Origin: a virus
Taxonomy: Duplodnaviria > Caudoviricetes
Direction: 5' to 3' (one strand)
Length of the DNA stretch: 63,583 nucleotides
Virus record (IMG/VR): IMGVR_UViG_3300036760_000302
Span: 1 to 63,583 of that record
Below the pieces are notes generated by a model. That model was not told the origin of the DNA and made no database searches. It was given only the letters and a program-made list of their open reading frames with translations. Position numbers and translations under genes: made by a program. Of the stretch, positions 2,824 through 38,606 are shown one piece after another; positions within the stretch are counted from its first letter, which is position 1; each line of letters opens with the position of its first letter.

Positions 2824-3340
2824 ATGACTATGGAGATTAAAAAATGCTCAGGGACTAACGTGTATGTGATTCCAGATATGTTATCTGTGGAGCAATGTGA
2901 TTACCTTATCAAGTATTTTTCCGGTCTTAGTAAGCCTCAGATATTAGAAGATATTCCGGAGATGTAACGCTTTATGGGGTTATATCGGTAATAAACTATC
3001 CGGAATAGACTTCGTGGATGGCAGGATTGGTAAGACCTTTAAAATAGTAGGCGTAAAACCCGCTATAACCTTCTCTAAGGCGGGATTTGCATTTGGGCGA
3101 CACATTGATAGGCAATTAGGCGGGGATGTCTTTAAAATGCTGTTTTATCTTAACAAGCTATCGGCAGGAGGTGGAACAGATTTCTTTGAGCCTTATAGCG
3201 ATGAAGGAGTTTCTGTCGAAAGCAATATCGGTACTGGAGTCCTATTCGATATAGAAGTAGAACATGGTAGTCAGCAGTTTCCTTCCGGTGAAATTAAGTA
3301 CGTGATTGGTGTGAGACCCGTGATAAATTACACTCAATAA
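2824..3340 (+). pseudogene. 2OG-Fe(II) oxygenase (prolyl-4-hydroxylase-like), frameshifted near 2950-2965
   Basis: 2824..2967 gives VYVIPDMLSVEQCDYLI; the +1 frame continues to RHID, LFYLN, GGGT, EHG, K..I..R. Confidence 0.6.
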
Positions 3341-5579: not shown

Positions 5580-6533
5580 ATGGGTTTTAAATACGAGTGT
5601 GAAAAATATGGTTTAAAAATAAGATACATGAAACCGCTTTATACTAAAGAAGAATTTAAAATAGCCGAAGGGGAAGATAAATTACCATTAGAATGTTACT
5701 CCTGCGGAAATACCTTCTTAAAACTAAAGCGAGTGATTCAAAGAACCCTGCGGAATAAAAATGGATATACAGGAAAATTTTGTAGCAAAAAATGTTGTGG
5801 TGCATCAAAGAAAAGAAAATTAATATCAGCAAAGTGCGAAAACGATAAATGCAATAAAGAACACGATGGTTCTTTCGGAAGTGGTAGATTTTGCAGAAGG
5901 GCTTGCGCTAATAGCAGAGTCAAAAGCGAATCAGATAAATTAAAAATATCTGCTGGGGTCAGGAATAGCGAGGCGTTTAAGGTAAGTGTCTTAAAATTAC
6001 CCAAGAAGATTAGGAAGATGTGGCGCGATGGGAAATATAATAGCAGAAGTGAAAAATTGATAAAGGTAGTTAAGTGGAAATGCCCAGTTTGCGATTCTAT
6101 TATAATGTTAAATCCAAGCGTAGCAAGAGAAAGAAAATATTGTAGTGGAAGATGTAGAAATAAAGTGAATAATAAATTTCAGAATGGTAGTAGGTCGTAT
6201 GCCGAAAGATACTTGGAGGAAAAATTAAGCGAGTCGTTTCCGTCATTAAAAATTGAATTTAATAATAGAGAAGTATTGAGTGGAAATAAAGAGTTGGATG
6301 TGTACATACCGTCTTTGAACTTTGCGATAGAATGGAATGGAATTTATCATTACAGGGAAGTAAATAAAGAAAGTTTAGTTAAGGTAAAAAAGAGAGATTT
6401 TGATAAAAAGAAAGAGTGTAAGCGAGGCGGAATATTGCTGTATGTGATAAAAGATTTAACGAGCAGTAAGAAATTTATAAGAGAAGAAACTGATAAAATT
6501 GTTCTTGTTATACGCAGACTAATTCATGGGTGA
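5580..6533 (+). CDS. Putative homing endonuclease (Zn fingers plus PD-(D/E)XK domain)
   Basis: Repeated FCS..C modules; ELDVYIPSLNFAIEWNGIYHY; ATG 5580 preferred. Confidence 0.75.
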   Translation: MGFKYECEKYGLKIRYMKPLYTKEEFKIAEGEDKLPLECYSCGNTFLKLKRVIQRTLRNKNGYTGKFCSKKCCGASKKRKLISAKCENDKCNKEHDGSFGSGRFCRRACANSRVKSESDKLKISAGVRNSEAFKVSVLKLPKKIRKMWRDGKYNSRSEKLIKVVKWKCPVCDSIIMLNPSVARERKYCSGRCRNKVNNKFQNGSRSYAERYLEEKLSESFPSLKIEFNNREVLSGNKELDVYIPSLNFAIEWNGIYHYREVNKESLVKVKKRDFDKKKECKRGGILLYVIKDLTSSKKFIREETDKIVLVIRRLIHG

Positions 6534-6596
6534 GATGGTCGGACTCCAAATCCGATGCCCGAAAGGGATGTGCGGGTTCGACTCCTGCTCTGCGTG
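6512..6596 (+). tRNA. tRNA-Trp(CCA) with long variable arm
   Basis: ACGCAGA/TCTGCGT-G; TCGGA-CTCCAAA-TCCGA; GCGGG-TTCGACT-CCTGC. Confidence 0.8.
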
Positions 6597-6638
6597 CAAG
6601 TAGTAAAATTGTTCTTTGAAAGTAAAATATTGTTTTTT

Positions 6639-8570: not shown

Positions 8571-9800
8571 ATGAAAGAAAGTATATTGAGATTACATTTT
8601 GAGGGCAAAAGCTATAATGAAATAAGGGCAATTCTTGGTTGTTCTAAAGGAACGATATCTTATCACTGCGGAGTAGAGCAGAAAGATAAAAGCAGAAAAA
8701 GAAAAAGAAAAAACAGGAAGGCGCGTAGAGGAATTAATAACAGAAGAAAGAAGATTGAGGTAAAAGAGGAGATATTAATATTACGCTCAGAAGGGAAAAC
8801 ATATCCTGAAATTGAAAAAATATTAAAATGCTCTCAAGGAAGAATAGGGTATTGGATTAAAAAAGAGAAGGGAATAACCCCATCTGATATATGCGAAAAC
8901 TGCAACAGAAAACATGATGGAAATTATGGCTCTGGTAGATTTTGTTCTCATAAATGCGCTCATGTAAGAAAAGGAGGTGGAAACGGGAATGCCATTAAAT
9001 GCAGAAAAAATAAAATAGAAAAAGAATTAACGAGACTAAATACAATTCATATATGTGAAAATTGTAACAATCAACATAGCGGAAATTACGGCAGTGGAAG
9101 ATTTTGCTCTTCTAAATGTGCAAGAGGATTTTCTACAAAAGAAAACAGAAAAAATATTAATGATGCCGTATCCGAAGCAATGACTGGTAGAAAGCATTCA
9201 GAAGAAAGAAAATTAAAAATATCTCCATTATTTGTATATTATTGGAAAGGTAAAAAGAAAAATGACGAAAACAGGAAAACTAAAATAAAACGCGGGAGGG
9301 GATATAAAAGGAAATTAAATCCAAAATCTTCAAAGGATTTAGCCGGATTAATAAAATTAGATAAAAAGTGCAGATATTGTAATGAAGCGGGGAGTGTTCT
9401 TTATCATGGTAGTGTATGTAAAAAATGCAAAAGTGAATTTTATATATTATATAGAGAAGCGTGTCGTTTTAAGTTCAATGTTTATCACTATCCAGAATAC
9501 TTTGATTTATCTTTAATAGAAAAACATAAATGGTATAAAGCAAAAAATAGGGGAGATAATTTAGGGGGAGTTAGCCGAGACCACCTATATTCTGTAAGTG
9601 ACGGATTTAAAAACAAGATTAATCCTGAAATCATTAGTCATCCGGCAAACTGCGAACTATTAATACATACAGACAATCAAAAGAAGCATAGCAAGAGCAA
9701 AATAACATTAGGTGAATTGATGAAGAGGATGAAAATATGGTCGGATAGCCAAACGGTTAGGCGCACCTCTGCAAAAGGTGATAAATCAGTTCAACTCTGA
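8571..9800 (+). CDS. Putative homing endonuclease (HTH repeats, Zn fingers, NUMOD3-like, HNH-like C-terminus)
   Basis: GKSYNEI..CSKGTISYH; CENCN..GSGRFCS twice; SRDHLYS..HPANCEL..N..K. Confidence 0.75.
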   Translation: MKESILRLHFEGKSYNEIRAILGCSKGTISYHCGVEQKDKSRKRKRKNRKARRGINNRRKKIEVKEEILILRSEGKTYPEIEKILKCSQGRIGYWIKKEKGITPSDICENCNRKHDGNYGSGRFCSHKCAHVRKGGGNGNAIKCRKNKIEKELTRLNTIHICENCNNQHSGNYGSGRFCSSKCARGFSTKENRKNINDAVSEAMTGRKHSEERKLKISPLFVYYWKGKKKNDENRKTKIKRGRGYKRKLNPKSSKDLAGLIKLDKKCRYCNEAGSVLYHGSVCKKCKSEFYILYREACRFKFNVYHYPEYFDLSLIEKHKWYKAKNRGDNLGGVSRDHLYSVSDGFKNKINPEIISHPANCELLIHTDNQKKHSKSKITLGELMKRMKIWSDSQTVRRTSAKGDKSVQL

Positions 9801-10994: not shown

Positions 10995-11546
10995 ATGAAG
11001 AGTAAAAGGATATTTAAAAACGGATACTATGTTGTACATAAGCCAGAGCATCCGAGAGCGTTTAACTCGAAAGGTAATAATTTGAGAGGGTATGTGTACG
11101 AGCACATAGTAGTTATGGAGGAAGATTTGGGGAGAATGATAAGGGATGATGAAGAAGTCCATCATCTTGATTTCAATAAGAGAAATAATTCTCCAGAAAA
11201 TTTAATAGTGTTGCCGAGTCCTCATCATAAGAGATTGCATCATTGGTTAATTGCTAATAAAATAAAGCCGATTCAGAAAGAGGTGTTAAGGTGTGAGGTT
11301 TGTGGCAAGCCATTGAGGTTGACTATGCAGAGTAAATATTGTAGCGAGATTTGTCGCAGGGAAGGTAAGAAGTCGAGAATAGATGAGGTGGGAATTGAGC
11401 AGATAAAAAAAGATTTGGTTGAGCTAAGGAGTCTCGTTAAGGTCGGAGCTAAATACGGATTGTCTGATAATGCTATAAAAAAATGGATGAAATTAAGATT
11501 TGGATACACGAATAAAGAAATTAGGAAAATGAAAAAGGGGGCATAA
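10995..11546 (+). CDS. HNH endonuclease
   Basis: YVYEHIVVME..VHHLDFNKRNNSPENL; TATATTTG promoter element at 10973..10980. Confidence 0.9.
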   Translation: MKSKRIFKNGYYVVHKPEHPRAFNSKGNNLRGYVYEHIVVMEEDLGRMIRDDEEVHHLDFNKRNNSPENLIVLPSPHHKRLHHWLIANKIKPIQKEVLRCEVCGKPLRLTMQSKYCSEICRREGKKSRIDEVGIEQIKKDLVELRSLVKVGAKYGLSDNAIKKWMKLRFGYTNKEIRKMKKGA

Positions 11547-12282: not shown

Positions 12283-12942
12283 ATGGGAAAGCCAAGAAAT
12301 ATTAAAGATGAAATAATAAGACTGTATTCGTCTGGAAAATTTTATAATGAAATAGCGAAAGAACTAAAGTGCTCTAAGGGTACGGTTAGTTATCACTGTG
12401 CTGAAATAAGAATAGAAAAGGGGCTCGATAAGAACGGGCAATGGAATAATGCTGACCCTGAAAAATACATAAAGGCGTGGCAGTTATGTAGGCAAAAGAT
12501 TGTAAATCATTATGTGAAAAAATTACTATCAGAGCCATATAAAAATTTAAGTTTTGAAAGGCTTAGGAAGAGAGTGATTTATGAGCAGAAGGAAAAGTGT
12601 AATCGCTGTAAGTTGTCGGAATGGCTCGGCATGAAGATAATGCTTGAATTAGAGCATAAAGACGGAGATAGGCATAATAATAAACGAAAAAATGTGGAAG
12701 GATTATGTCCAAATTGTCATAGTCAAACAAGTACATGGAGAGGGAAGAATAAGAGGAATAAAAGAGATTTAGTATCTGACGAGAAATTGATAATTTCATT
12801 AGTTAAGCATGGTTTTAATTTTAGAAGAGCTCTAATCGAAGTAGGTCTTGCTCCTAAAGGTGGTAACTATAAGAGATGCCATAAAATAAGTAGAGCACTA
12901 AGGGGTGGTCAGAATAAATCATCGAGCACTAAAAGTTTTTAA
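12283..12942 (+). CDS. HNH endonuclease with N-terminal HTH
   Basis: LELEHKDGDRHNNKRKNVEGLCPNCHSQT. Confidence 0.9.
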   Translation: MGKPRNIKDEIIRLYSSGKFYNEIAKELKCSKGTVSYHCAEIRIEKGLDKNGQWNNADPEKYIKAWQLCRQKIVNHYVKKLLSEPYKNLSFERLRKRVIYEQKEKCNRCKLSEWLGMKIMLELEHKDGDRHNNKRKNVEGLCPNCHSQTSTWRGKNKRNKRDLVSDEKLIISLVKHGFNFRRALIEVGLAPKGGNYKRCHKISRALRGGQNKSSSTKSF

Positions 12943-13547: not shown

Positions 13548-13620
13548 GCCTTTGTAGTTTAATTGGATAGAATATCAGATTTCGGCTCTGATGGTGGAGA
13601 TTCGAGTTCTCCCGAAGGCA
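13548..13620 (+). tRNA. tRNA-Arg(TCG)
   Basis: TCAGA-TTTCGGC-TCTGA. Confidence 0.9.
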
Positions 13621-13621
13621 C

Positions 13622-13660
13622 AAAAAAAAATCCCGAAACAAATTAATGCTTCGGGATTTA
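13622..13660. terminator. Terminator between tRNA operon 1 and the convergent gene
   Basis: AAATCCCGAA..TTCGGGATTT with a flanking A-tract. Confidence 0.65.
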
Positions 13661-13675
13661 TAATTATTATTGTTT

Positions 13676-14431
13676 TTATTTCAGTATTTGAAAACTTCCT
13701 TTATAAGAAACACGAATAATACCTCCACCGCTACCGATAGCATTACGCTGGACGGTGCAAATAGGATACTTTTGTTTGTCTTTATCATTTTTTCCGCACG
13801 GAGGATTTACGCTTGACGTGCAATCGTCACATCCGAATGGGAATACACCTATTTGCCCGCTATTATTACGGATACCTTTGTTCCAGATAGAATCTACCTT
13901 CGGGTACATAGAACTCGCATTCCAATCTTCTCCTCCTAAAAATTTACCGGAGATTATACAGTTAGCTCCATCTACGCAAGATATTTCAACTGTCTCTTGT
14001 GGATTTGGATACGGAGCATTGGATATATTCACGATAAACTCAAAGATGTTTATGCCGAATGGGTATCGAGGGATAGCGCAAGTTAGAGCGACTGTATCGA
14101 AAGAAAATTCACCATTGTATCCCATGCTGTCTGGCGCATAGTCAATGGTGGAGTCATGTGGAGCGAGAGTGAAGTATCCTTTGAGTGGAGCGACTGAATC
14201 AGTAATGAACGGAACTTGACCTATGTTTTGCAGGCAACCATTTGTTGCACCGAGAGATAACCATACGACTACCGCCTTGTCGGTTTCGTTTACAACTCTT
14301 ATTCTGGTAGTGGTATCAACGGCTGGCTCGGACTGCTCGTTAATTACGACAGTTTCTTTTACATTAATAGTGTTGTCGCATCCGAAGAGTGCGATGCAGA
14401 GTGCGAATAATAATAGGATTCTGTTTTTCAT
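13676..14431 (-). CDS. Cys-rich lipoprotein
   Basis: Signal peptide II with lipobox LFGC. Confidence 0.7.
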   Translation of the reverse strand: MKNRILLLFALCIALFGCDNTINVKETVVINEQSEPAVDTTTRIRVVNETDKAVVVWLSLGATNGCLQNIGQVPFITDSVAPLKGYFTLAPHDSTIDYAPDSMGYNGEFSFDTVALTCAIPRYPFGINIFEFIVNISNAPYPNPQETVEISCVDGANCIISGKFLGGEDWNASSMYPKVDSIWNKGIRNNSGQIGVFPFGCDDCTSSVNPPCGKNDKDKQKYPICTVQRNAIGSGGGIIRVSYKGSFQILK

Positions 14432-14468
14432 TTTGATTGGTTTGTTTTATTTGGGTTTATGGGGTTAG

Positions 14469-14538
14469 TAGTCACGATGGGGGTTGAACCCACTAAGACA
14501 GGGTTAGAATCCCATCCCTCCTCCACCGGAGCATGACT
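14469..14538 (-). tRNA. Atypical tRNA-like RNA with ATTCTAAC anticodon region (TCT, CTA or TCTA)
   Basis: AGTCATG/CGTGACT-A; GTGGG-TTCAACC-CCCAT; minus-strand TATCTTTG promoter element at 14547..14554. Confidence 0.6.
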
Positions 14539-14636
14539 ATTTCCGGCAAAGATAATCAATATTTGGATTAACAAATTTTAACATTGCCGTATTAAAGAAT
14601 ATTCCTATATTTACTTAACGAACAACAAATACTACC

Positions 14637-15047
14637 ATGAAATAGATTTCCAACACCGACAAGTTAACGATAGTCACCAGACGTGACATCACCGCAGGAT
14701 ACCAAGCCTGCCAGTCCGCACACGCTATTGCGGAGTTCATTTTCAAATACCCATTCCTTTCTTATCTCTGGCACAAACGCTCAAATTATGTAGCGTTACT
14801 TTCCGTTCAGGGAGAACCAGCACTCATGTACCTTATAAGTAAGCTCGAAGCTGAAAATATAAAGCACGTTGCATTTAAAGAGCCGGACATCGGCAATCAG
14901 ATTACAGCCGTTTGCATCGAACCATCGGATAAGGCGCGAGCTATTTGTGCCGGAATGCCGTTGGCATTAAAAGAATTTCGCTCCGAGAATAAAATCAACA
15001 AGACGACCTATAAATCATTAACCTCAGAATACCAACTCATTACATGA
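14637..15047 (+). CDS. Pth2-like peptidyl-tRNA hydrolase with in-frame TAG at codon 3
   Basis: MK*ISNTDKLTIVTRRDITAGYQACQSAHA..FKEPDIGNQITAVCI, in frame with ORF 14826..15047. Confidence 0.75.
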
Positions 15048-15082
15048 AATAGATTATAGGAAATATCAGAGAACCGCCTTAA
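15044..15082 (+). other. Second ATG-AAA-TAG-ATT mini-ORF (MK*IIGNIREPP*)
   Basis: Overlaps the pth stop (ATGA); repeats CATGAAATAGATT; hairpin CCGCC/GGCGG spans its stop. Confidence 0.55.
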
Positions 15083-15145
15083 AGTTCATGGGCGGAATAG
15101 AAATTTAATGAATTAGCAGTAATAATATTTTAAACTTTAAAAACA

Positions 15146-15577
15146 ATGAACACAATGAAAAATGAAAATCGCGCAGAGCTTCTCGAAGCGAACAGCGCAA
15201 ATGTTGAAGTAACATTCAATAAAATCCGAGAGTATGCAAACGCCAACGGATACATCATCATGAACGCCTTGAAAGTTCCAACGAATTTGATAGGCTTAAA
15301 CAAATCTCTTCACTTCGACAGCAAGAAGAAGAAAAAGGTTCTCAGGAATTACATCAATCGCCTTAATAAGCGTATGAGTCATTCCGGTGCGAACTGCTTT
15401 CTTCATTTTCTTTTTAAGACCATCTACAAAATGGATACTGCTCCAAGTGTAGAGTTTTCTGAAAAAGAAATAAAGATTCGTTCTGCTCGTAAGGCTTGGG
15501 TGAAAGCTCGTACAGAGGCAGAGAAACTCCGAGTCCTGTACCGGACGGAAAAGGGTGATTTTTATAAGAAGAAATAA
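15146..15577 (+). CDS. Hypothetical basic protein
   Basis: 143-aa ORF with A-rich start context. Confidence 0.7.
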   Translation: MNTMKNENRAELLEANSANVEVTFNKIREYANANGYIIMNALKVPTNLIGLNKSLHFDSKKKKKVLRNYINRLNKRMSHSGANCFLHFLFKTIYKMDTAPSVEFSEKEIKIRSARKAWVKARTEAEKLRVLYRTEKGDFYKKK

Positions 15578-15703
15578 TCCTATCTTTACAGTCTCATCTC
15601 CCAGTCCGAAGTACAAGGACGTTAGTGGAGAAGGAGCTCGAAAGACGCTAACCCATGATGGTTGGCGTTTTTTGGTTTAAGGAAATTACTATCTTTGCAT
15701 CAG

Positions 15704-16253
15704 GATTTCATTTTAAGTTCTTTGCTTATTGAGTTGTATTGACAATTTGTTTGGACGAGGGTTCGTAGCCCTCCGCCTCCACCAAATTTTAGTTAGGTAA
15801 CGCTATCGGTGTATGGGGCATCTCAAGGAACACATCTAACGTCAGGTGATGATACCGTAATTTGGCGGTTGTAACTTCTTGGACTGTCTTTGCGGGAAGC
15901 TAAACATACTTCCTGATAGTTCTCAACTGACAAGATAAAAAGATGTTTCGGTAACGAAATGTTCAACACTATCCATTGATGGTGCTTGTAGGCGGGAATA
16001 ACTGACTAATATTTTATTTTTACCTCCATCAACCATGCGTTGATGAATTACGGGAGCGTTCAGTTTTACTCTGGGCGCTTCTTGCTTTTGGGGGCGAATG
16101 TTTTGACAGCGAAGATGTCGGTATGATTTTCCGGTCAATAGACTGGAGCGAAATCTCAACGTCTAAATGACGAAAAAATAGAGTACCGTCTGGTCGCTTA
16201 GAGCGATGCAGGCAAACAGTTAAAAACCTCTCAGCGAAAGCTCAGGGGTTTTT
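15704..16253 (+). ncRNA. ssrA: Circularly permuted (two-piece) tmRNA: acceptor piece to 15784, coding piece from 16090, tag 16169..16201
   Basis: GAGGG-TTCGTAG-CCCTC-CGCCTCC-ACCA precedes GGGGGCG (G3:U70); 14-bp helix between pieces; tag DEKIEYRLVA*; promoter element 15690..15697; terminator 16222..16253. Confidence 0.85.
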
Positions 16254-16278
16254 CTGTTTTTATAACTATCTTTACAAA

Positions 16279-17103
16279 ATGAAAAAATATTTCATAGTAA
16301 CGATATTGCTAATTCTGATTATAGTTTCATGCGGACTGTTCAGGAGTAAGTCATCCCATTACGGAGAAGGCTCTGGATACGGCTCTGGCGGAAATTCGCA
16401 TACGGATTCTACTACCGTTAACTTTGATTCTTTATTAGGCAATGATGATATTTTCGAGAGCTTAGAGCCAGAACCTCATAAAGTAGTAATAACCTCTGGC
16501 GAGGGTTGGTATCCAAAACCTCCGAATCCTAATTTGAAAATAGTTAAGATTGAAAATACGCGGGTCATAAATAAATCCGTTGATATGTCCGATGGAAGGG
16601 TCGTGTATAAAATTCCTGAGCGAATGAAGATTCGCGAGACCAGCAAAGTCCTGCTTAGAATCTCCAAGTCTAAAGCAACGGTGAGCGTGTATGATAATCT
16701 GGACGGCACAGTTCGGACATCAGAAATTCCGGTGACGCAGACGATGGAAGTAAATCTTATTGACCCATCCCCAGCCGACAATAAATCATTTGAGATAGTG
16801 CCGGACAATAACGCGGTGCAGATAGTTGATGACGGGGAGACCTACACTGAATGGTCATGGAATGTCACTCCGGTTCGGGCTGGGAGCTCCAGCTTGAAGA
16901 TTGTAGTATCGGTAATCCGCGATGGGAATAAAAAAGACGTAGTGTATGAGGACTCGGTAGTGATTGAAAGAGACCTCCAGAATCAAATATCCTTCTTCTG
17001 GGGCAAATACTGGCAGTGGCTCATAGGAACATTCCTCCTGCCGTTTTTCTTGTGGCTGTATAAGCGAAAAAAGGATAAAAAAGAAGAAGAGAGAAATAAT
17101 TGA
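16279..17103 (+). CDS. Lipoprotein with C-terminal TM helix
   Basis: IVSC lipobox; WQWLIGTFLLPFFLWLY. Confidence 0.7.
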   Translation: MKKYFIVTILLILIIVSCGLFRSKSSHYGEGSGYGSGGNSHTDSTTVNFDSLLGNDDIFESLEPEPHKVVITSGEGWYPKPPNPNLKIVKIENTRVINKSVDMSDGRVVYKIPERMKIRETSKVLLRISKSKATVSVYDNLDGTVRTSEIPVTQTMEVNLIDPSPADNKSFEIVPDNNAVQIVDDGETYTEWSWNVTPVRAGSSSLKIVVSVIRDGNKKDVVYEDSVVIERDLQNQISFFWGKYWQWLIGTFLLPFFLWLYKRKKDKKEEERNN

Positions 17104-19400: not shown

Positions 19401-19515
19401 TGCGGGGGAGTGAAACGGAAATTGCTGGGTTGTGGACTTAATTGCGAGCAACTTTAGTAAGAATCATTTTAGGCTCATAACCTAAAGATAGCAAGTTCGA
19501 CTCTTGCTCCCGCTA
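19401..19515 (+). tRNA. Initiator-like tRNA-Met(CAT) with about 40 extra nt in the D-loop
   Basis: TGCGGGG/TCCCGCT-A; TTAGG-CTCATAA-CCTAA; own TATCTTTG promoter element at 19385..19392. Confidence 0.75.
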
Positions 19516-35872: not shown

Positions 35873-36064
35873 TAATATTATTTGCATCAAGTATCTCCAG
35901 ACGATAAAGACAATAATCCAAAGGACTACGTTGATTATCACGAACTGAGCAAATACCGTTTCACTTTCTTTTTTAAAATATTTATTTGATGCCATTTTTA
36001 ATACGACCCATAGTACGCTGGTAATCAAGGCTACGCTTATTATGAAGGATATAAAATAGTTCAT
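35852..36064 (-). CDS. Small membrane protein, 3' end altered by the MITE
   Basis: Two TM segments; last codons lie in the TIR. Confidence 0.6.
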   Translation of the reverse strand: MNYFISFIISVALITSVLWVVLKMASNKYFKKESETVFAQFVIINVVLWIIVFIVWRYLMQIILGNYILI

Positions 36065-37167
36065 CAGTCAATTTTTGGATTATTGAAAAATTCCATCATT
36101 CCACCTCTTTTTTTGCCCGCACCGAATTTACTGCTACTCATCATGATGCTTGAATTTTCATCATCAATCATAATTGCTCGTTGGATGTATTCCGGTAGCG
36201 TAGTTCCTTTTGGCAGGAATTTATAATGACTTCTGATTGCACACTTCTTGTACATATCTGTTTTCCATTCGGTATAGAAATAGTCGCTCTCGCCTCCGGT
36301 ACTCATTTGTTCTATTTTCGCGAGCTTCCATATCTCCATGAAGTGATAATGCTTTGTTCCGTCATTCAGTATGGCGACAGAATAAGCTCCGGCAATTTGG
36401 CGTGCATTATTTTCAGCTTCGGTCTTAGCAACTTTTGGCTTATGGGTAATTTTATTCTCGGCTGGAAGATACTCGAACTCATAGTCATCTTCATAAACTA
36501 TATGAGCGTCCATAACTTTTATACTACCGCTATCTGTCAAGGACTTGATTAATCCGCGATAGGTGAGCTCGAATACGCATTTGCCGTCTTTGGCTTTAAG
36601 GTATGCAAGTTTTAAAGCTGGATTAATTGTGCTCTTGGTTCTGCCTATGTCAATGATTGCGGAAACTATCGAGTCTTGATGACAATTTTTGAGAGTTGGA
36701 TTTTCGTGGAAGATGGAATAAACGTATGACATCTCGGTGTCAGCTTGACTCTCAGCCATTCCTTCGACTACCAGTATTTGCCTTGCCTTCTCTACTTGGT
36801 TCTGCCAGTGAGGTGTAGAGCCGGAAATGGTAGTGGATTCGTTAGGCTCTAATACAATAGGTGATGATGAGATTATTTTAATGGGCTTGTCGCTATTATT
36901 TTTTATGTCGAATCGTTGTCCTGCTGATGATGCGTGAGGTAATGCAACCGTAGTCTGAGTCTCGGATTCCTTTTTTAATTTCCAAATCATTGTGTTGATA
37001 GAACCCTCAGACCTATTAAGCTGGGACGATAGCCAATCTACTGGCTTATTTATATTGTGCTGGATGAAATCAATCTCATCCTGCTTCCACCGCTTGTTGT
37101 GAGATTTTCCTGTAAAACCTGTTAGATTTAGTTGAGAGGTATAAGGCATTATTTTTTTCTGTTTCAT
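36064..37167 (-). CDS. recT: RecT-family single-strand annealing protein
   Basis: SIVSAI..INPALKLAYL..LTYRGLI..IVYEDD..MYKKCAIR..KFLP. Confidence 0.8.
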   Translation of the reverse strand: MKQKKIMPYTSQLNLTGFTGKSHNKRWKQDEIDFIQHNINKPVDWLSSQLNRSEGSINTMIWKLKKESETQTTVALPHASSAGQRFDIKNNSDKPIKIISSSPIVLEPNESTTISGSTPHWQNQVEKARQILVVEGMAESQADTEMSYVYSIFHENPTLKNCHQDSIVSAIIDIGRTKSTINPALKLAYLKAKDGKCVFELTYRGLIKSLTDSGSIKVMDAHIVYEDDYEFEYLPAENKITHKPKVAKTEAENNARQIAGAYSVAILNDGTKHYHFMEIWKLAKIEQMSTGGESDYFYTEWKTDMYKKCAIRSHYKFLPKGTTLPEYIQRAIMIDDENSSIMMSSSKFGAGKKRGGMMEFFNNPKID

Positions 37168-37172
37168 TTTTT

Positions 37173-38343
37173 TTAGTTGTAAAAAAAATCCACCAAAGTG
37201 ATACATTTTTTCGACACTTTTTATAGAATAAACCTTTTTTGAATCTTCAATTTTAACTCGTGTGCCTTTGTCTTGCATCCCGCCAACTGAAAATATTTTT
37301 CCGTTAATCCAAATCAAATCTTTTGGCTGAATAGCATATCGTTGCTTTCGGATTGAAGGCGAAAATCCTTTTCTGTTTAATTGAATCGCCCTGTTATTTC
37401 TATGCTTTTGTTGAATTGTAATTGACCCGTATCGCTCTTGTGTTGCTCCGCCAGCAATAACAAACGCATCAGTGGCGTGGGATTTTTCTAATCCCAGTTT
37501 TTGTCTTTCAACGAAAGTTTTGTATCCAAAGGTGATATTTACATCTGGAATATCTTGTTTGAATTTATGTTGGATGATGGACATAAATGTATTTGCTTTA
37601 TACTCTTTTGGAGTAAATAATTTTAATCCATTATTATGCAATTTCTTGTGACACTTCTTATGAATTATCGCCAAGTTTTCTGAACGGTCAGAGCCCTGTT
37701 CGTGACGCTCTTTGCAGTGATGAATATGCGATGGATTTCCTTTTGTAAATTCTTTGTGGCACAACTGGCATAAACCATGTTCTCGCGCCATCAGATATGC
37801 TCTCATATTTTGGTAGCCATACAAATCTCCTTGCTGATAACCAATGCCATTAATGTCTGGATTTATAATTTTAGCGATGTCAAAATTGCCAGTTTCGATT
37901 GTGACTTTTGAAATTGGCAGAATTGATTTTGCATTCTTGATTAGCGTCAAATGAGCGTCATATCTCCTTTGAATTGATGGTGGAAGCCAACCTTCTTTTT
38001 GATTCCCTCGATTCAAAAATCTTGATTTTCGATACCATAATTTGTTTCTCTTTAACCTGCGATACATTCTTCTTTCGGTCAGCCTACTTGATGTTTTGCT
38101 GTCAAGCGTAATTGTTTGAGACAATACTTCTTTCGTTGAGGTAATGGCTGACATTCCAACATTGTTAAATCCGGAATCAACTCCAAGTCTGATTTCTTGC
38201 GCCTGATTCTCGCACTCAAAATTTAATTTAATAGTGAATGGATACAATTTAATAACCTTAGCGCGATTACCGTTAAGTAATTTTTTCGCTTTTGCTGGAG
38301 TGCATGGCATTAAAGTGCGTCCTTCAATACTAATTACATACAC
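37173..38343 (-). CDS. iscB: IscB RNA-guided nuclease (reads through into recT as assembled)
   Basis: GRTLMPC (PLMP), LGVDSG (RuvC-I), Arg-rich bridge helix, IETGNFD, HNH HIHH..N..CHKKLH, SHATDA. Confidence 0.9.
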
Positions 38344-38606
38344 AATGGCTTTAAGCCTCTCTGTATGTTGAGATAAATCCACTTCGGGATTGTTAAAACA
38401 GGTTTTTGAGCCTGACACACTAAGAGTTTCCTCTTTGTTTAATGACAGACCACAGTTGCTACGGACTTGTGGAGCATCCGTAGGTGTGTTCTTTTTAGTT
38501 CTCTGTTTTAACTTCTGCTTCATTGTTTCCAATTTACGCTCCCTAATCAACCTGTTACCCTTAAACCTCACGGCTCAAGCCCTTTCTTTTGGATTGGGTG
38601 ATTGAC
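37176..38606 (-). mobile_element. IscB (OMEGA) IS200/IS605 element
   Basis: Begins GTCAATCACCC, then omegaRNA, then iscB; ends near TACAAC. Confidence 0.8.
38350..38606 (-). ncRNA. omegaRNA (HEARO-like) scaffold
   Basis: About 260 nt structured region 5' of iscB; TCAATCACCC..GGTTGATT first stem. Confidence 0.7.

What the first reader, a model, noticed from the sequence alone, without database searches (positions are those of the whole stretch)
14469..15096. Pth2-like gene gated by an amber codon, a repeated MK*I motif, and a divergent CTA-containing tRNA-like RNA
Seen: the conserved Pth2 N-terminus (IVTRRD..QSAHA) is reached from ATG 14637 only by reading through TAG at codon 3. The same CATGAAATAGATT recurs at the gene's end, starting MK*IIGNIREPP*. 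About 100 bp upstream, on the other strand, a separately promoted tRNA-like RNA folds with a 6-bp stem and 8-nt ATTCTAAC loop, complementary to TAG(A). Established: two-codon minigenes such as lambda bar cause peptidyl-tRNA drop-off, and Pro-stop impairs termination. Inference: this is a conditional readthrough switch that senses RF1 or termination status, or uses a dedicated suppressor.
Basis: partly seen in the sequence, partly recalled or inferred. Interest (0 to 1): 0.8.

Follow-up and report, generated by a model that had tools for sequence, protein, structure and literature searches.

The report
Amber-gated phage Pth2 gene and leader
A phage gene for a peptidyl-tRNA-hydrolase-like enzyme, and a tiny stalling leader beside it, both start with a stop codon that must be read through, a design shared by many giant phages that carry their own amber-reading tRNA.

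Summary
The sequence facts hold. A Pth2-fold gene (14637-15047) starts ATG-AAA-TAG, with no ATG/GTG/TTG in frame until 14826. The same 13-mer recurs at 15043 and opens a 12-codon mini-ORF ending R-E-P-P-TAA.

Neither is an error or chance. 72 of 80 phage relatives have ATG, 0-3 codons and then TAG before the same domain; only 4 of 80 have a TAG elsewhere in the gene. 60 of 80 carry a tRNA with anticodon CTA on the same strand within 2.5 kb.

41 of 80 relatives also have an amber mini-ORF ending R/K-x-P-P, RGP or RSP (0 on the opposite strand). Each is followed 41-139 nt later by a small unknown protein ("X"; here 15146-15577). In 15 of 35 loci the X start codon can pair with the bases just after the mini-ORF stop.

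Best reading: a module that responds to amber suppression. Reading UAG switches on the Pth2-like enzyme directly, and X through a stalling leader.

The minus-strand tRNA-like RNA is weak: Rfam 18.5 bits against a cut-off of 29, canonical anticodon UCU, and not conserved. It is probably not the suppressor. No tRNA(CTA) lies in this 35%-complete fragment.

Five searches of the held library found no description of this arrangement.

The parts
14637..15047 (+). Pth2-like gene. It starts ATG AAA TAG ATT, followed by 133 sense codons and TGA.
   Evidence: PF01981, 21.3 bits, below the cut-off of 23; phrog_1866, E=4.3e-13.
14643..14645 (+). Gating amber codon (codon 3), followed by ATT.
   Evidence: Present in 72 of 80 relatives at codon 2-5. 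Unchanged in strain-variant contigs.
15044..15082 (+). Leader mini-ORF: ATG AAA TAG plus 9 codons ending R-E-P-P, then TAA. Its ATG overlaps the Pth2-like stop codon (ATGA).
   Evidence: Counterparts on the + strand in 41 of 80 relatives and on the - strand in 0 of 83 loci.
15084..15089 (+). GUUCAU just after the leader stop, complementary to the X start AUGAAC (candidate anti-start element).
   Evidence: -6.7 kcal/mol here. The same register gives -12.8 to -15.3 kcal/mol in L008, L009, L010, L012 and L014.
15146..15577 (+). Protein X, 143 aa, helical, function unknown. It belongs to family C1 of the genes that follow such leaders.
   Evidence: pLDDT 83.9; no fold match.
14469..14538 (-). Degenerate tRNA-like sequence. 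It probably lies in the 5' leader of the transcript for the minus-strand gene 13676-14431.
   Evidence: One X2 contig joint skips 14464-14538 (weak evidence).
14547..14554 (-). TATCTTTG promoter-like box 8 nt upstream of the tRNA-like 5' end.
   Evidence: The same word lies in front of the tmRNA-like gene (15690) and the tRNA-Gln gene (19230). The Bacteroidota -7 consensus it resembles is recalled, not tested.
15690..16292 (+). Probable permuted (two-piece) tmRNA gene. The tag frame at 16169-16201 ends in TAG.
   Evidence: Rfam RF04321: 40.9 bits against a cut-off of 47, E about 1e-6. ARAGORN finds it only at -ps90.

Best explanation
The locus is one copy of a conserved phage module whose outputs depend on reading the amber codon UAG.

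(1) The Pth2-like enzyme is translated from ATG 14637. It is completed only if UAG at codon 3 is decoded. In relatives, a phage tRNA with anticodon CUA encoded beside the gene is the likely decoder.

(2) Directly behind it, a 12-codon leader starts with the same ATG-AAA-UAG. If the UAG is read, the ribosome runs into an R-x-P-P-stop ending of the RAPP-like stalling kind. It then sits on the bases that otherwise pair with the start codon of the next gene, X, and so opens that gene for translation.

Both proteins would therefore be made in proportion to amber read-through. The Pth2-like enzyme would then recycle peptidyl-tRNA that falls off ribosomes when termination is disturbed.

Shown: the sequence pattern, its conservation, the link to tRNA(CTA), the Pth2 fold and the complementarity. 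Inferred: read-through, stalling, the control of X, and the purpose of the module. In this window the suppressor itself was not found.
For: Early TAG: 72 of 80 relatives have ATG, 0-3 sense codons and then TAG before the domain. Only 4 of 80 have any internal TAG. The gating stop is never TAA or TGA. 67 of 74 TAG loci have no ATG/GTG/TTG between the TAG and the first strand. The base after TAG is always A or G; the next codon is ATT in 36 of 64.

Initiation site: 15 of 63 dereplicated genes have a Shine-Dalgarno core 4-10 nt before the leader ATG. None has one at that spacing before the post-TAG codon.

Suppressor link: tRNA(CTA) lies on the same strand within the flanks in 60 of 80 loci. The next most frequent anticodon occurs in 11 of 80. 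TAG-bearing loci have it in 59 of 73, TAG-free loci in 1 of 7 (Fisher p=7.6e-4). After dereplication this is 50 of 63 against 1 of 6 (p=0.0038).

Leader: 42 of 83 loci have the amber mini-ORF with a Pro-rich ending on the + strand, and 0 of 83 on the - strand. Each of the 35 examined is followed 41-139 nt later by an ORF of 47-164 aa. Pairing between the leader's 3' flank and the X start is -8 kcal/mol or stronger in 15 of 35. The controls give 10% (cross-locus pairs) and 4.9% (shuffles).

The three X families are not detectably homologous, yet sit behind the same kind of leader. A 79%-identical relative uses the same 12-mer to open a 191-codon HD-like ORF. RAPP-like endings of small upstream ORFs are known stalling signals (PMC12992588, passages read).
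Against: No tRNA(CTA) was found in the window with ARAGORN at default, -i or -ps90, or with Rfam. The record is only about 35% complete, so its absence from the genome is not shown.

The window's own anti-start pairing is weak: 6 bp, -6.7 kcal/mol, against a 5th percentile of -7.9 for shuffles. 20 of 35 loci fall short of -8. The mini-ORF motif was defined after seeing the data. The only control is the opposite strand.

The window's ending REPP is not one of the tested RAPP-like cores, and known arrest peptides are much longer.

In Bxz1 and Myrna the post-TAG codon is GTG with a well-spaced Shine-Dalgarno sequence (my reading of the sequence printed). There the gate may be bypassed. 14 of 73 TAG loci show no tRNA(CTA) in their flanks; some of those flanks are cut short. 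More distant homologs have no amber codon: XacN1, RAS14, Aeromonas 65.2 and Lak-A1.

No expression or protein data exist.
Confidence: 0.6

Rival explanations
1. Termination and re-initiation, with no suppression needed. Ribosomes translate the 2-codon mini-ORF (ATG AAA TAG), terminate, and restart at the adjacent ATT. The mini-ORF only tunes the level of Pth2-like protein, perhaps through dipeptidyl-tRNA drop-off as with the lambda bar minigenes.
For: The codon after TAG is ATT, ATA, ATC, ATG or GTN in 55 of 64 genes. In Bxz1 and Myrna it is GTG, with a Shine-Dalgarno sequence spaced for it. ATG-NNN-stop has the form of a bar-type minigene (recalled).
Against: Only TAG is ever used, never TAA or TGA, which re-initiation alone does not explain. 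12 of 64 post-TAG codons are GTA or GTT, and 9 of 64 are AAC, AGC, GGC, ACA, ACT, AAA, GCT or AGA, none of them start codons. The tight link to tRNA(CTA) has no role in this model.
Confidence: 0.15
2. The phage reads TAG as a sense codon throughout (code 15). The TAG would then be an ordinary Gln codon with no special gating role.
For: Relatives carry tRNA(CTA). Some huge phages are known to recode TAG (Borges preprint, passages read). L001 and 4 of 80 loci have one extra internal TAG. The window holds replication-type genes and no identified structural genes, so late genes could not be checked.
Against: In the window TAG ends 5 of 65 long ORFs, three of them directly followed by the next gene in another frame. 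Treating TAG as sense lengthens frames less than the TGA and TAA controls do. A plain sense codon would not sit at codon 2-5 in 72 of 80 genes and almost nowhere else in them.
Confidence: 0.1
3. The minus-strand tRNA-like RNA (14469-14538) is this phage's dedicated amber or UAGA decoder.
For: It has a 7-bp acceptor stem, a good T arm and CUA within an 8-nt loop. ARAGORN at -ps80 reads the anticodon as 'tcta'. A promoter-like box lies 8 nt upstream. Odd tRNAs with 6- or 8-nt anticodon loops occur beside the module in relatives. No other suppressor is visible in the window.
Against: It scores 18.5 bits against a cut-off of 29, lacks nucleotides 8-9 and has a 3-bp canonical anticodon stem with anticodon UCU. 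Its fold is no better than shuffles. It resembles relatives' suppressors only in the T arm. The eight nearest relatives searched have no counterpart. Reading UAGA as four bases would shift the frame into a stop within 7 codons (my reading of the sequence). One strain-variant contig joint skips exactly this element (weak).
Confidence: 0.1
4. Broken gene or assembly error.
For: Under table 11 the gene has no start codon for its first 60 codons.
Against: The same feature occurs in 72 of 80 relatives at 35-53% identity. The TAG is unchanged in independent runs. The protein is under clear constraint: 10 invariant columns across 51 sequences.
Confidence: 0.02

Closest known systems
Stop-codon recoding with phage suppressor tRNAs as a timer for late or lytic genes (Borges et al., bioRxiv 10.1101/2021.08.26.457843; passages read)
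   Same: An in-frame TAG blocks a phage gene until a phage-encoded tRNA(CUA) acts. The suppressor tRNA is encoded by the phage.
   Different: Here there is a single TAG at codon 2-5 of one small gene family and of a leader ORF, not many TAGs spread through structural and lysis genes. The window otherwise uses TAG as a stop codon. The word 'hydrolase' does not occur in that preprint's main text. Its supplements could not be seen.
RAPP-like and SecM-type arrest-peptide leaders (ApdA, ApdP, ApcA, SecM; PMC12992588 passages read, PMC10951233 abstract only)
   Same: A small upstream ORF ends in R-x-P-P, RGP or RAGP-like residues. A same-strand gene lies a short distance downstream, and its start region can be held in a hairpin that a stalled ribosome would open.
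   Different: These leaders are only 6-15 codons long after the TAG, have no signal peptide, and carry an amber codon at codon 2-5, so the sensed input would be UAG decoding and not secretion. Many endings (KPP, RSP, REPP) are not among the tested cores. Stalling was not tested.
prfB (RF2) autoregulation and amino-acid attenuation leaders (recalled, not looked up)
   Same: A codon early in a reading frame is used as a sensor. In prfB an in-frame UGA reports RF2 level. In the trp and his leaders, codons report charged tRNA.
   Different: No frameshift is needed here, since the domain is in the zero frame. The sensed species would be a suppressor tRNA or RF1.
Lambda bar minigenes and Pth (recalled)
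   Same: ATG, one codon and then a stop make a two-codon ORF. That kind of ORF releases peptidyl-tRNA, which is the substrate of peptidyl-tRNA hydrolase.
   Different: Here the minigene is in frame with, and fused to, the hydrolase-like gene itself. Only TAG is used. Toxicity and drop-off were not tested.
Archaeal and eukaryotic Pth2 (PF01981; PDB 2zv3, 3erj, 1xty, 1q7s)
   Same: Same fold over the whole length (TM by target 0.69-0.79 for the best hits), with a profile match at E=4e-9. The Q..H motif is conserved (Q23 and H26 invariant).
   Different: The single sequence scores below Pfam's cut-off (21.3 against 23). There is a two-residue gap where archaeal enzymes have G-K. E-P-D stands in place of D-A-G. 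Activity is unknown.

Membership tests
Pth2 (PF01981) peptidyl-tRNA hydrolase | Sequence match at or above the curated cut-off | tested here: inconclusive
   The single sequence scores 21.3 bits against a cut-off of 23. A family profile of 51 sequences hits five solved Pth2 chains at E=4e-9 to 7.5e-6, and two more at E up to 0.0052.
Pth2 (PF01981) peptidyl-tRNA hydrolase | Pth2 alpha/beta fold | tested here: met
   The model has pLDDT 90.8. All 12 hits with E<=0.001 shown (13 counted) are Pth2-family structures, with rmsd 2.1-3.1 A for the top eleven.
Pth2 (PF01981) peptidyl-tRNA hydrolase | Catalytic residues and hydrolase activity | not testable with these tools
   The acidic position is kept as E79/D81. 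The Lys region of the archaeal enzymes is a gap. Which residues are catalytic is recalled, not checked.
Amber suppressor tRNA (for the RNA at 14469-14538, minus strand) | Cloverleaf above the tRNA model threshold, with a 7-nt anticodon loop carrying CUA at positions 34-36 | tested here: not met
   It scores 18.5 bits against 29, and the canonical parse gives UCU. ARAGORN finds it only at -ps80, with a 4-base anticodon.
Amber suppressor tRNA (for the RNA at 14469-14538, minus strand) | Conserved beside the amber-gated gene in relatives | tested here: not met
   No minus-strand tRNA-like match at E<=1 in 8 relatives. Suppressors in relatives lie on the gene's own strand.
TAG-recoded (code 15) phage | In-frame TAGs in many genes; TAG not used as a stop | tested here: not met
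   5 of 65 long ORFs end in TAG. Treating TAG as sense gives no gain over the controls. Only 35% of the genome was seen, and no structural genes were identified.
RAPP-like arrest-peptide leader | Small upstream ORF with an R-x-P-P-type C-terminus and a same-strand gene close downstream | tested here: met
   The window's leader ends R-E-P-P-TAA and lies 64 nt before X. 41 of 80 relatives have a counterpart.
RAPP-like arrest-peptide leader | Ribosome stalling that controls the downstream gene | not testable with these tools
   Only complementarity between the leader's 3' flank and the X start was measured (15 of 35 loci at -8 kcal/mol or stronger).
bar-type minigene | Two-codon ORF whose expression is toxic when Pth is limiting | not testable with these tools
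   The form ATG-AAA-TAG is present twice.

The most novel reading that the evidence does not exclude
Large phages carry a self-contained sensor for nonsense suppression. A phage tRNA(CUA) is the input. An amber codon at codon 2-5 acts as a gate, and an amber-plus-arrest leader peptide acts as an amplifier. The outputs are a Pth2-type hydrolase and a set of unrelated small proteins (X, an HD-domain protein and others).

This would give the 'orphan' suppressor tRNAs of otherwise standard-code phages their first defined targets. It would also be the first leader peptide found to read out UAG decoding (or RF1 activity) and not an amino acid, a drug or secretion.
Probability: 0.45. Interest if true: 0.85.

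Novelty: new variant of a known kind. Interest (0 to 1): 0.8.

Why it matters
Phage suppressor tRNAs are usually discussed as tools for genome-wide recoding. For phages that otherwise use the standard code, their targets are an open question. The XacN1 authors state that they could find none (PMC5852040, passages read).

This module offers defined, testable targets. One is a Pth2-like gene family with a conserved early amber codon. The other is a tiny amber-plus-Pro-Pro-stop leader ahead of small unknown genes. Both sit next to the suppressor gene.

The finding also shows that gene callers will cut off or miss these genes. The table-11 ORF here is 73 aa, against 133 codons after the TAG. It supplies a compact natural part (a 12-nt start cassette) for suppression-dependent expression.

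Finally, it links code switching to ribosome-rescue functions: the Pth2-like enzyme, the tmRNA-like gene and the tRNA array.

Tried and rejected
- **Single-protein scan of viral contigs:** no relatives.
- **Exact 30-mer scan of viral contigs:** nothing, so no longer copy of this phage.
- **Metagenome scan:** one 1035-nt contig only.
- **DNA search of the phage collection with 13600-16300:** no match.
- **Suppressor in the window:** ARAGORN with introns and with relaxed thresholds, and Rfam at E-value thresholds, found none. The weak tRNA at 19443-19515 has anticodon CAU. The 86-nt tRNA-Trp is odd, but its anticodon is CCA.
- **tRNA-like RNA against relatives' suppressors and the window's tRNAs:** only T-arm similarity to the suppressors. 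The best global identity is 67%, to a tRNA-Met.
- **Amino-acid identity of the suppressors:** inconclusive when compared with the window's tRNAs.
- **Protein X:** no Pfam family, only a marginal PHROG match (phrog_23128, E=0.0025), no PDB fold match at E<=0.001 and no Atlas hit.
- **More distant homologs:** in XacN1, RAS14 and Aeromonas 65.2 the Pth2-like domain is the C-terminal part of a longer protein without an amber codon. Lak-A1 has no early TAG. They do not belong to the amber-gated set.
- **Bxz1 and Myrna:** no arrest-like mini-ORF.
- **Other amber-gated long ORFs in the window:** none convincing.
- **Sequencing runs:** no RNA holder listed.
- **Literature:** searches found no paper describing an amber-gated Pth gene or an amber-containing arrest leader. 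The published version of Borges et al. and Al-Shayeb et al. 2020 were not read.

Full report
**Setting**

The window is a whole IMG/VR virus record of 63,583 bases, estimated 35% complete, with 38.7% G+C. It holds 33 tRNA genes on the + strand between 6.5 and 19.3 kb. These are interspersed with HNH endonuclease genes. On the other strand lie replication-type genes: a DnaB-like helicase and a RecT-like protein. No structural gene was identified among the ten largest minus-strand ORFs examined.

**The observation**

ATG 14637 is followed by AAA, TAG (14643-14645) and ATT. An open frame then runs to TGA at 15045-15047. In that frame the only ORF with an ATG, GTG or TTG start begins at 14826.

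The 13-mer CATGAAATAGATT occurs exactly twice in the window, at 14636 and 15043. The second copy overlaps the first gene's stop codon. It opens a 12-codon ORF whose tail ends R-E-P-P, followed by TAA (15044-15082).

Contigs of other public runs cover these places. X2 differs from the window at 22 of 1049 positions, yet both TAGs are unchanged. X4 keeps the first TAG and X3 keeps the second. X1 may be the source sample.

**The protein**

- Pfam PTH2 matches just below its cut-off (21.3 against 23 bits).
- phrog_1866, of unknown function, matches at E=4.3e-13.
- A profile of 51 family members hits archaeal Pth2 2zv3 at E=4e-9 over its full length.
- The AlphaFold model (pLDDT 90.8) finds only Pth2-family structures among its hits at E<=0.001.

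It is a Pth2-fold protein. Whether it is an active hydrolase cannot be said. The acidic position is kept, but the region that holds a Lys in archaeal enzymes is a gap. Which residues are catalytic is recalled, not checked.

**The early amber codon is a family trait**

tblastn first showed it in four huge uncultured phages: ATG, one or two codons, TAG, then ATT before the domain. An alignment-based scan of IMG/VR found 149 relatives, of which the best 80 loci were kept. Most lie on contigs of 100-480 kb.

- Reading upstream in frame, 72 of 80 have ATG, 0-3 sense codons and then TAG.
- One more (L061) has the TAG, but its ATG is out of frame.
- Seven have no TAG.
- Only 4 of 80 have a TAG anywhere else in the gene.
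- The gating stop is never TAA or TGA.
- In 67 of 74 TAG loci there is no ATG, GTG or TTG between the TAG and the first strand.
- In the dereplicated set plus the window (64 genes) the next codon is ATT 36 times, GTA or GTT 12, ATA 4. It always starts with a purine.
- Where a Shine-Dalgarno core exists, it lies 4-10 nt before the leader ATG in 15 of 63 genes, and never before the post-TAG codon.

**Link to a suppressor tRNA**

ARAGORN finds a tRNA with anticodon CTA on the same strand within the 2.5-kb flanks in 60 of 80 loci. The next most frequent anticodon, Cys GCA, occurs in 11 of 80.

| Set | TAG-bearing loci with tRNA(CTA) | TAG-free loci with tRNA(CTA) | Fisher p |
|---|---|---|---|
| All loci | 59 of 73 | 1 of 7 | 7.6e-4 |
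| Dereplicated | 50 of 63 | 1 of 6 | 0.0038 |

Related loci share ancestry, so these p-values overstate independence.

**Cultured phages**

In mycobacteriophages Bxz1 and Myrna the annotated Pth gene starts at a GTG. That GTG is directly preceded by ATG-TAG in Bxz1 and by GTG-TAG in Myrna. A tRNA(CTA) lies 130-306 nt downstream. It is annotated tRNA-OTHER in Bxz1 and tRNA-Ser in Myrna.

There the Shine-Dalgarno sequence is spaced for the post-TAG GTG (my reading), so suppression may not be required.

More distant homologs do not share the gate: XacN1 ORF364, RAS14, Aeromonas 65.2 and Lak-A1.

**The second element**

The window's mini-ORF has counterparts on the gene's strand in 41 of 80 relatives. 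Each has a start codon, 0-3 codons, TAG, usually an Ile or Val codon, then 2-13 more codons. The tails end in forms such as KPP, RPP, RSP, RGP, RAPP or RGPT, almost always followed by TAA. None of the 83 loci has such an ORF on the opposite strand. I defined the motif after seeing the data, so the strand control is the only guard.

All of these mini-ORFs lie downstream of the Pth2-like gene, and several start within 15 nt of its stop. Of the 35 examined, each is followed 41-139 nt later by an ORF of 47-164 aa beginning MET or MKT. These ORFs fall into four BLAST clusters plus one singleton. The window's ORF 15146-15577 belongs to cluster C1, which has 14 members. Clusters C1, C2 and C3 are not detectably related by profile comparison (probability below 1%).

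X is helical (pLDDT 83.9). It has no fold match, no Pfam family and no Atlas hit, and only a marginal PHROG match (phrog_23128, E=0.0025).

In many loci the order is Pth2-like gene, leader, X, tRNA(CTA).

**RNA pairing**

The 22 nt after the leader stop can pair with the X start region. The pairing is -8 kcal/mol or stronger in 15 of 35 loci, against 10% of cross-locus pairs and 4.9% of shuffles. Different sequences keep the same pairing: L008, L012, L036, L033, L023 and L019.

In the window the pairing is GUUCAU with AUGAAC at -6.7 kcal/mol, which is weak. A ribosome held at the leader's stop codon would cover this element.

RAPP-like endings of small upstream ORFs are established stalling signals that regulate downstream genes (PMC12992588, passages read; PMC10951233, abstract only).

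**A closer relative**

A 1035-nt metagenome contig is 79% identical in protein. It carries the same ATGAAATAGATT overlapping the Pth2-like stop codon. There it opens a 191-codon ORF with a weak HD-domain match (E=8.8e-4, below the cut-off), followed by tRNA-Cys.

Other amber-started ORFs occur near the module: an 82-aa protein in L072 and L084, a 135-aa protein in L085, and a second Pth2-like copy in L017, L018, L037 and L046. The cassette therefore looks portable.

**The window's code**

TAG ends 5 of 65 long ORFs (TAA 50, TGA 10). Three of these are directly followed by the next gene in another frame. Treating TAG as sense does not lengthen frames more than the TGA and TAA controls do. The part of the genome seen uses the standard code. 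Late genes were not seen.

**The tRNA-like RNA**

| Test | Result |
|---|---|
| Rfam tRNA model | 18.5 bits against a cut-off of 29; no nucleotides 8-9; two non-pairs in the anticodon stem; anticodon UCU |
| ARAGORN | only at -ps80, as 'tcta', among 29 extra calls |
| RNAfold | not a cloverleaf; z=-1.7 |
| Similarity to relatives' suppressors | T arm only |
| Counterpart in the eight nearest relatives searched | none |
| Best identity to a window tRNA | 67%, to a tRNA-Met |
| Promoter-like TATCTTTG | 8 nt upstream; the same transcript would run into the minus-strand gene 13676-14431 |
| X2 contig joint | skips 14464-14538, while another X2 contig contains it (weak) |

I read it as a decayed tRNA copy in a 5' leader. 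I give about 10% to its being a functional decoder.

**Mechanism and odds**

I put 0.6 on the suppression-responsive module as stated: about 0.7 for the gating of the Pth2-like gene and about 0.5 for leader control of X. Re-initiation at the post-TAG codon gets 0.15. Plain code 15 gets 0.1. The tRNA-like RNA as the suppressor gets 0.1. Error or pseudogene gets 0.02.

Why a Pth2-type enzyme should be tied to amber decoding is inference. Read-through of stop codons and stalled termination raise the load of peptidyl-tRNA and of stalled ribosomes. The neighbours are a tRNA array and a probable permuted tmRNA gene.

**Literature**

Five searches found no paper describing an amber-gated Pth gene or an amber-containing arrest leader.

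- The Borges preprint and a 2026 jumbo-phage survey do not contain the word 'hydrolase' in their main text.
- The XacN1 paper reports two CUA suppressors for which its authors could identify no target genes.

Noticed in passing
window 15690-16292 (+): Probable permuted (two-piece) tmRNA gene directly after X. Rfam RF04321 gives 40.9 bits against a cut-off of 47 (E about 1e-6). ARAGORN finds it only at -ps90. The tag frame reads DEKIEYRLVA and ends in TAG (16169-16201), the same codon that gates the neighbouring genes. Standard tmRNA genes lie upstream of the Pth2-like gene in L051, L052, L055 and L057.
   Followed up: partly
window 36064-38606 (-): HEARO RNA (RF02033, 109 bits, above its cut-off) at 38373-38606. 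It lies at the 5' end of an 835-aa ORF with an HNH/IscB-like part (residues 76-391) fused in frame to a RecT-like part (609-801).
   Followed up: no
L094:318-902: In a 79%-identical relative the same ATGAAATAGATT overlapping the Pth2-like stop codon opens a 191-codon ORF with a weak HD-domain match. tRNA-Cys follows, then an ATGGAAA start at the contig end.
   Followed up: partly
L088 (Bxz1) 2483-2491 and 3169-3241; L089 (Myrna) 2474-2482 and 2966-3037: The annotated Pth genes of these cultured mycobacteriophages start at a GTG preceded by ATG-TAG or GTG-TAG. A tRNA with anticodon CTA lies just downstream, annotated tRNA-OTHER in Bxz1 and tRNA-Ser in Myrna.
   Followed up: partly
L017:1709, L018:1739, L037:1684, L046:1740: A second amber-started Pth2-like copy of 244-262 codons lies upstream of the main copy. 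Its sequence departs from the family after the GYQAV motif, which may reflect an insertion or a fusion.
   Followed up: no
L072:2100 and L084:2837; L085:3559; L012:2982: Further ORFs that start ATG, 0-2 codons and then TAG: a conserved 82-aa protein in L072 and L084, a 135-aa protein in L085 and a 68-aa protein in L012. None has a Pfam family in the two tested.
   Followed up: partly
L008:2421-2501, L021:3671-3744, L053:3098-3167, L060:3092-3161, L084, L086: ARAGORN calls tRNAs with 2- or 4-base 'anticodons' (6- or 8-nt loops) right beside the module. Several lie 15-41 nt before the leader mini-ORF.
   Followed up: no
L061:2480-2500 and L078:2477-2500: Two relatives in which the nearest ATG is in another frame than the Pth2-like domain. 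This could be an indel, an assembly error or a frameshift site.
   Followed up: no
window 14464-14538: In run X2 one contig joint skips exactly these 75 bases (the tRNA-like element), while another X2 contig contains them. This may be a presence/absence polymorphism, but support is weak (30 letters on the shorter side).
   Followed up: no
window 6512-6597 (+) and 19443-19515 (+): An 86-nt tRNA-Trp(CCA) call with a long extra arm scores only 31 bits in Rfam. A sub-threshold tRNA-like sequence with anticodon CAU (23.8 bits) follows a TATCTTTG box.
   Followed up: partly
window 8571-9800, 10995-11546, 12283-12942 (+): HNH homing-endonuclease-like genes sit between blocks of the tRNA array.
   Followed up: no
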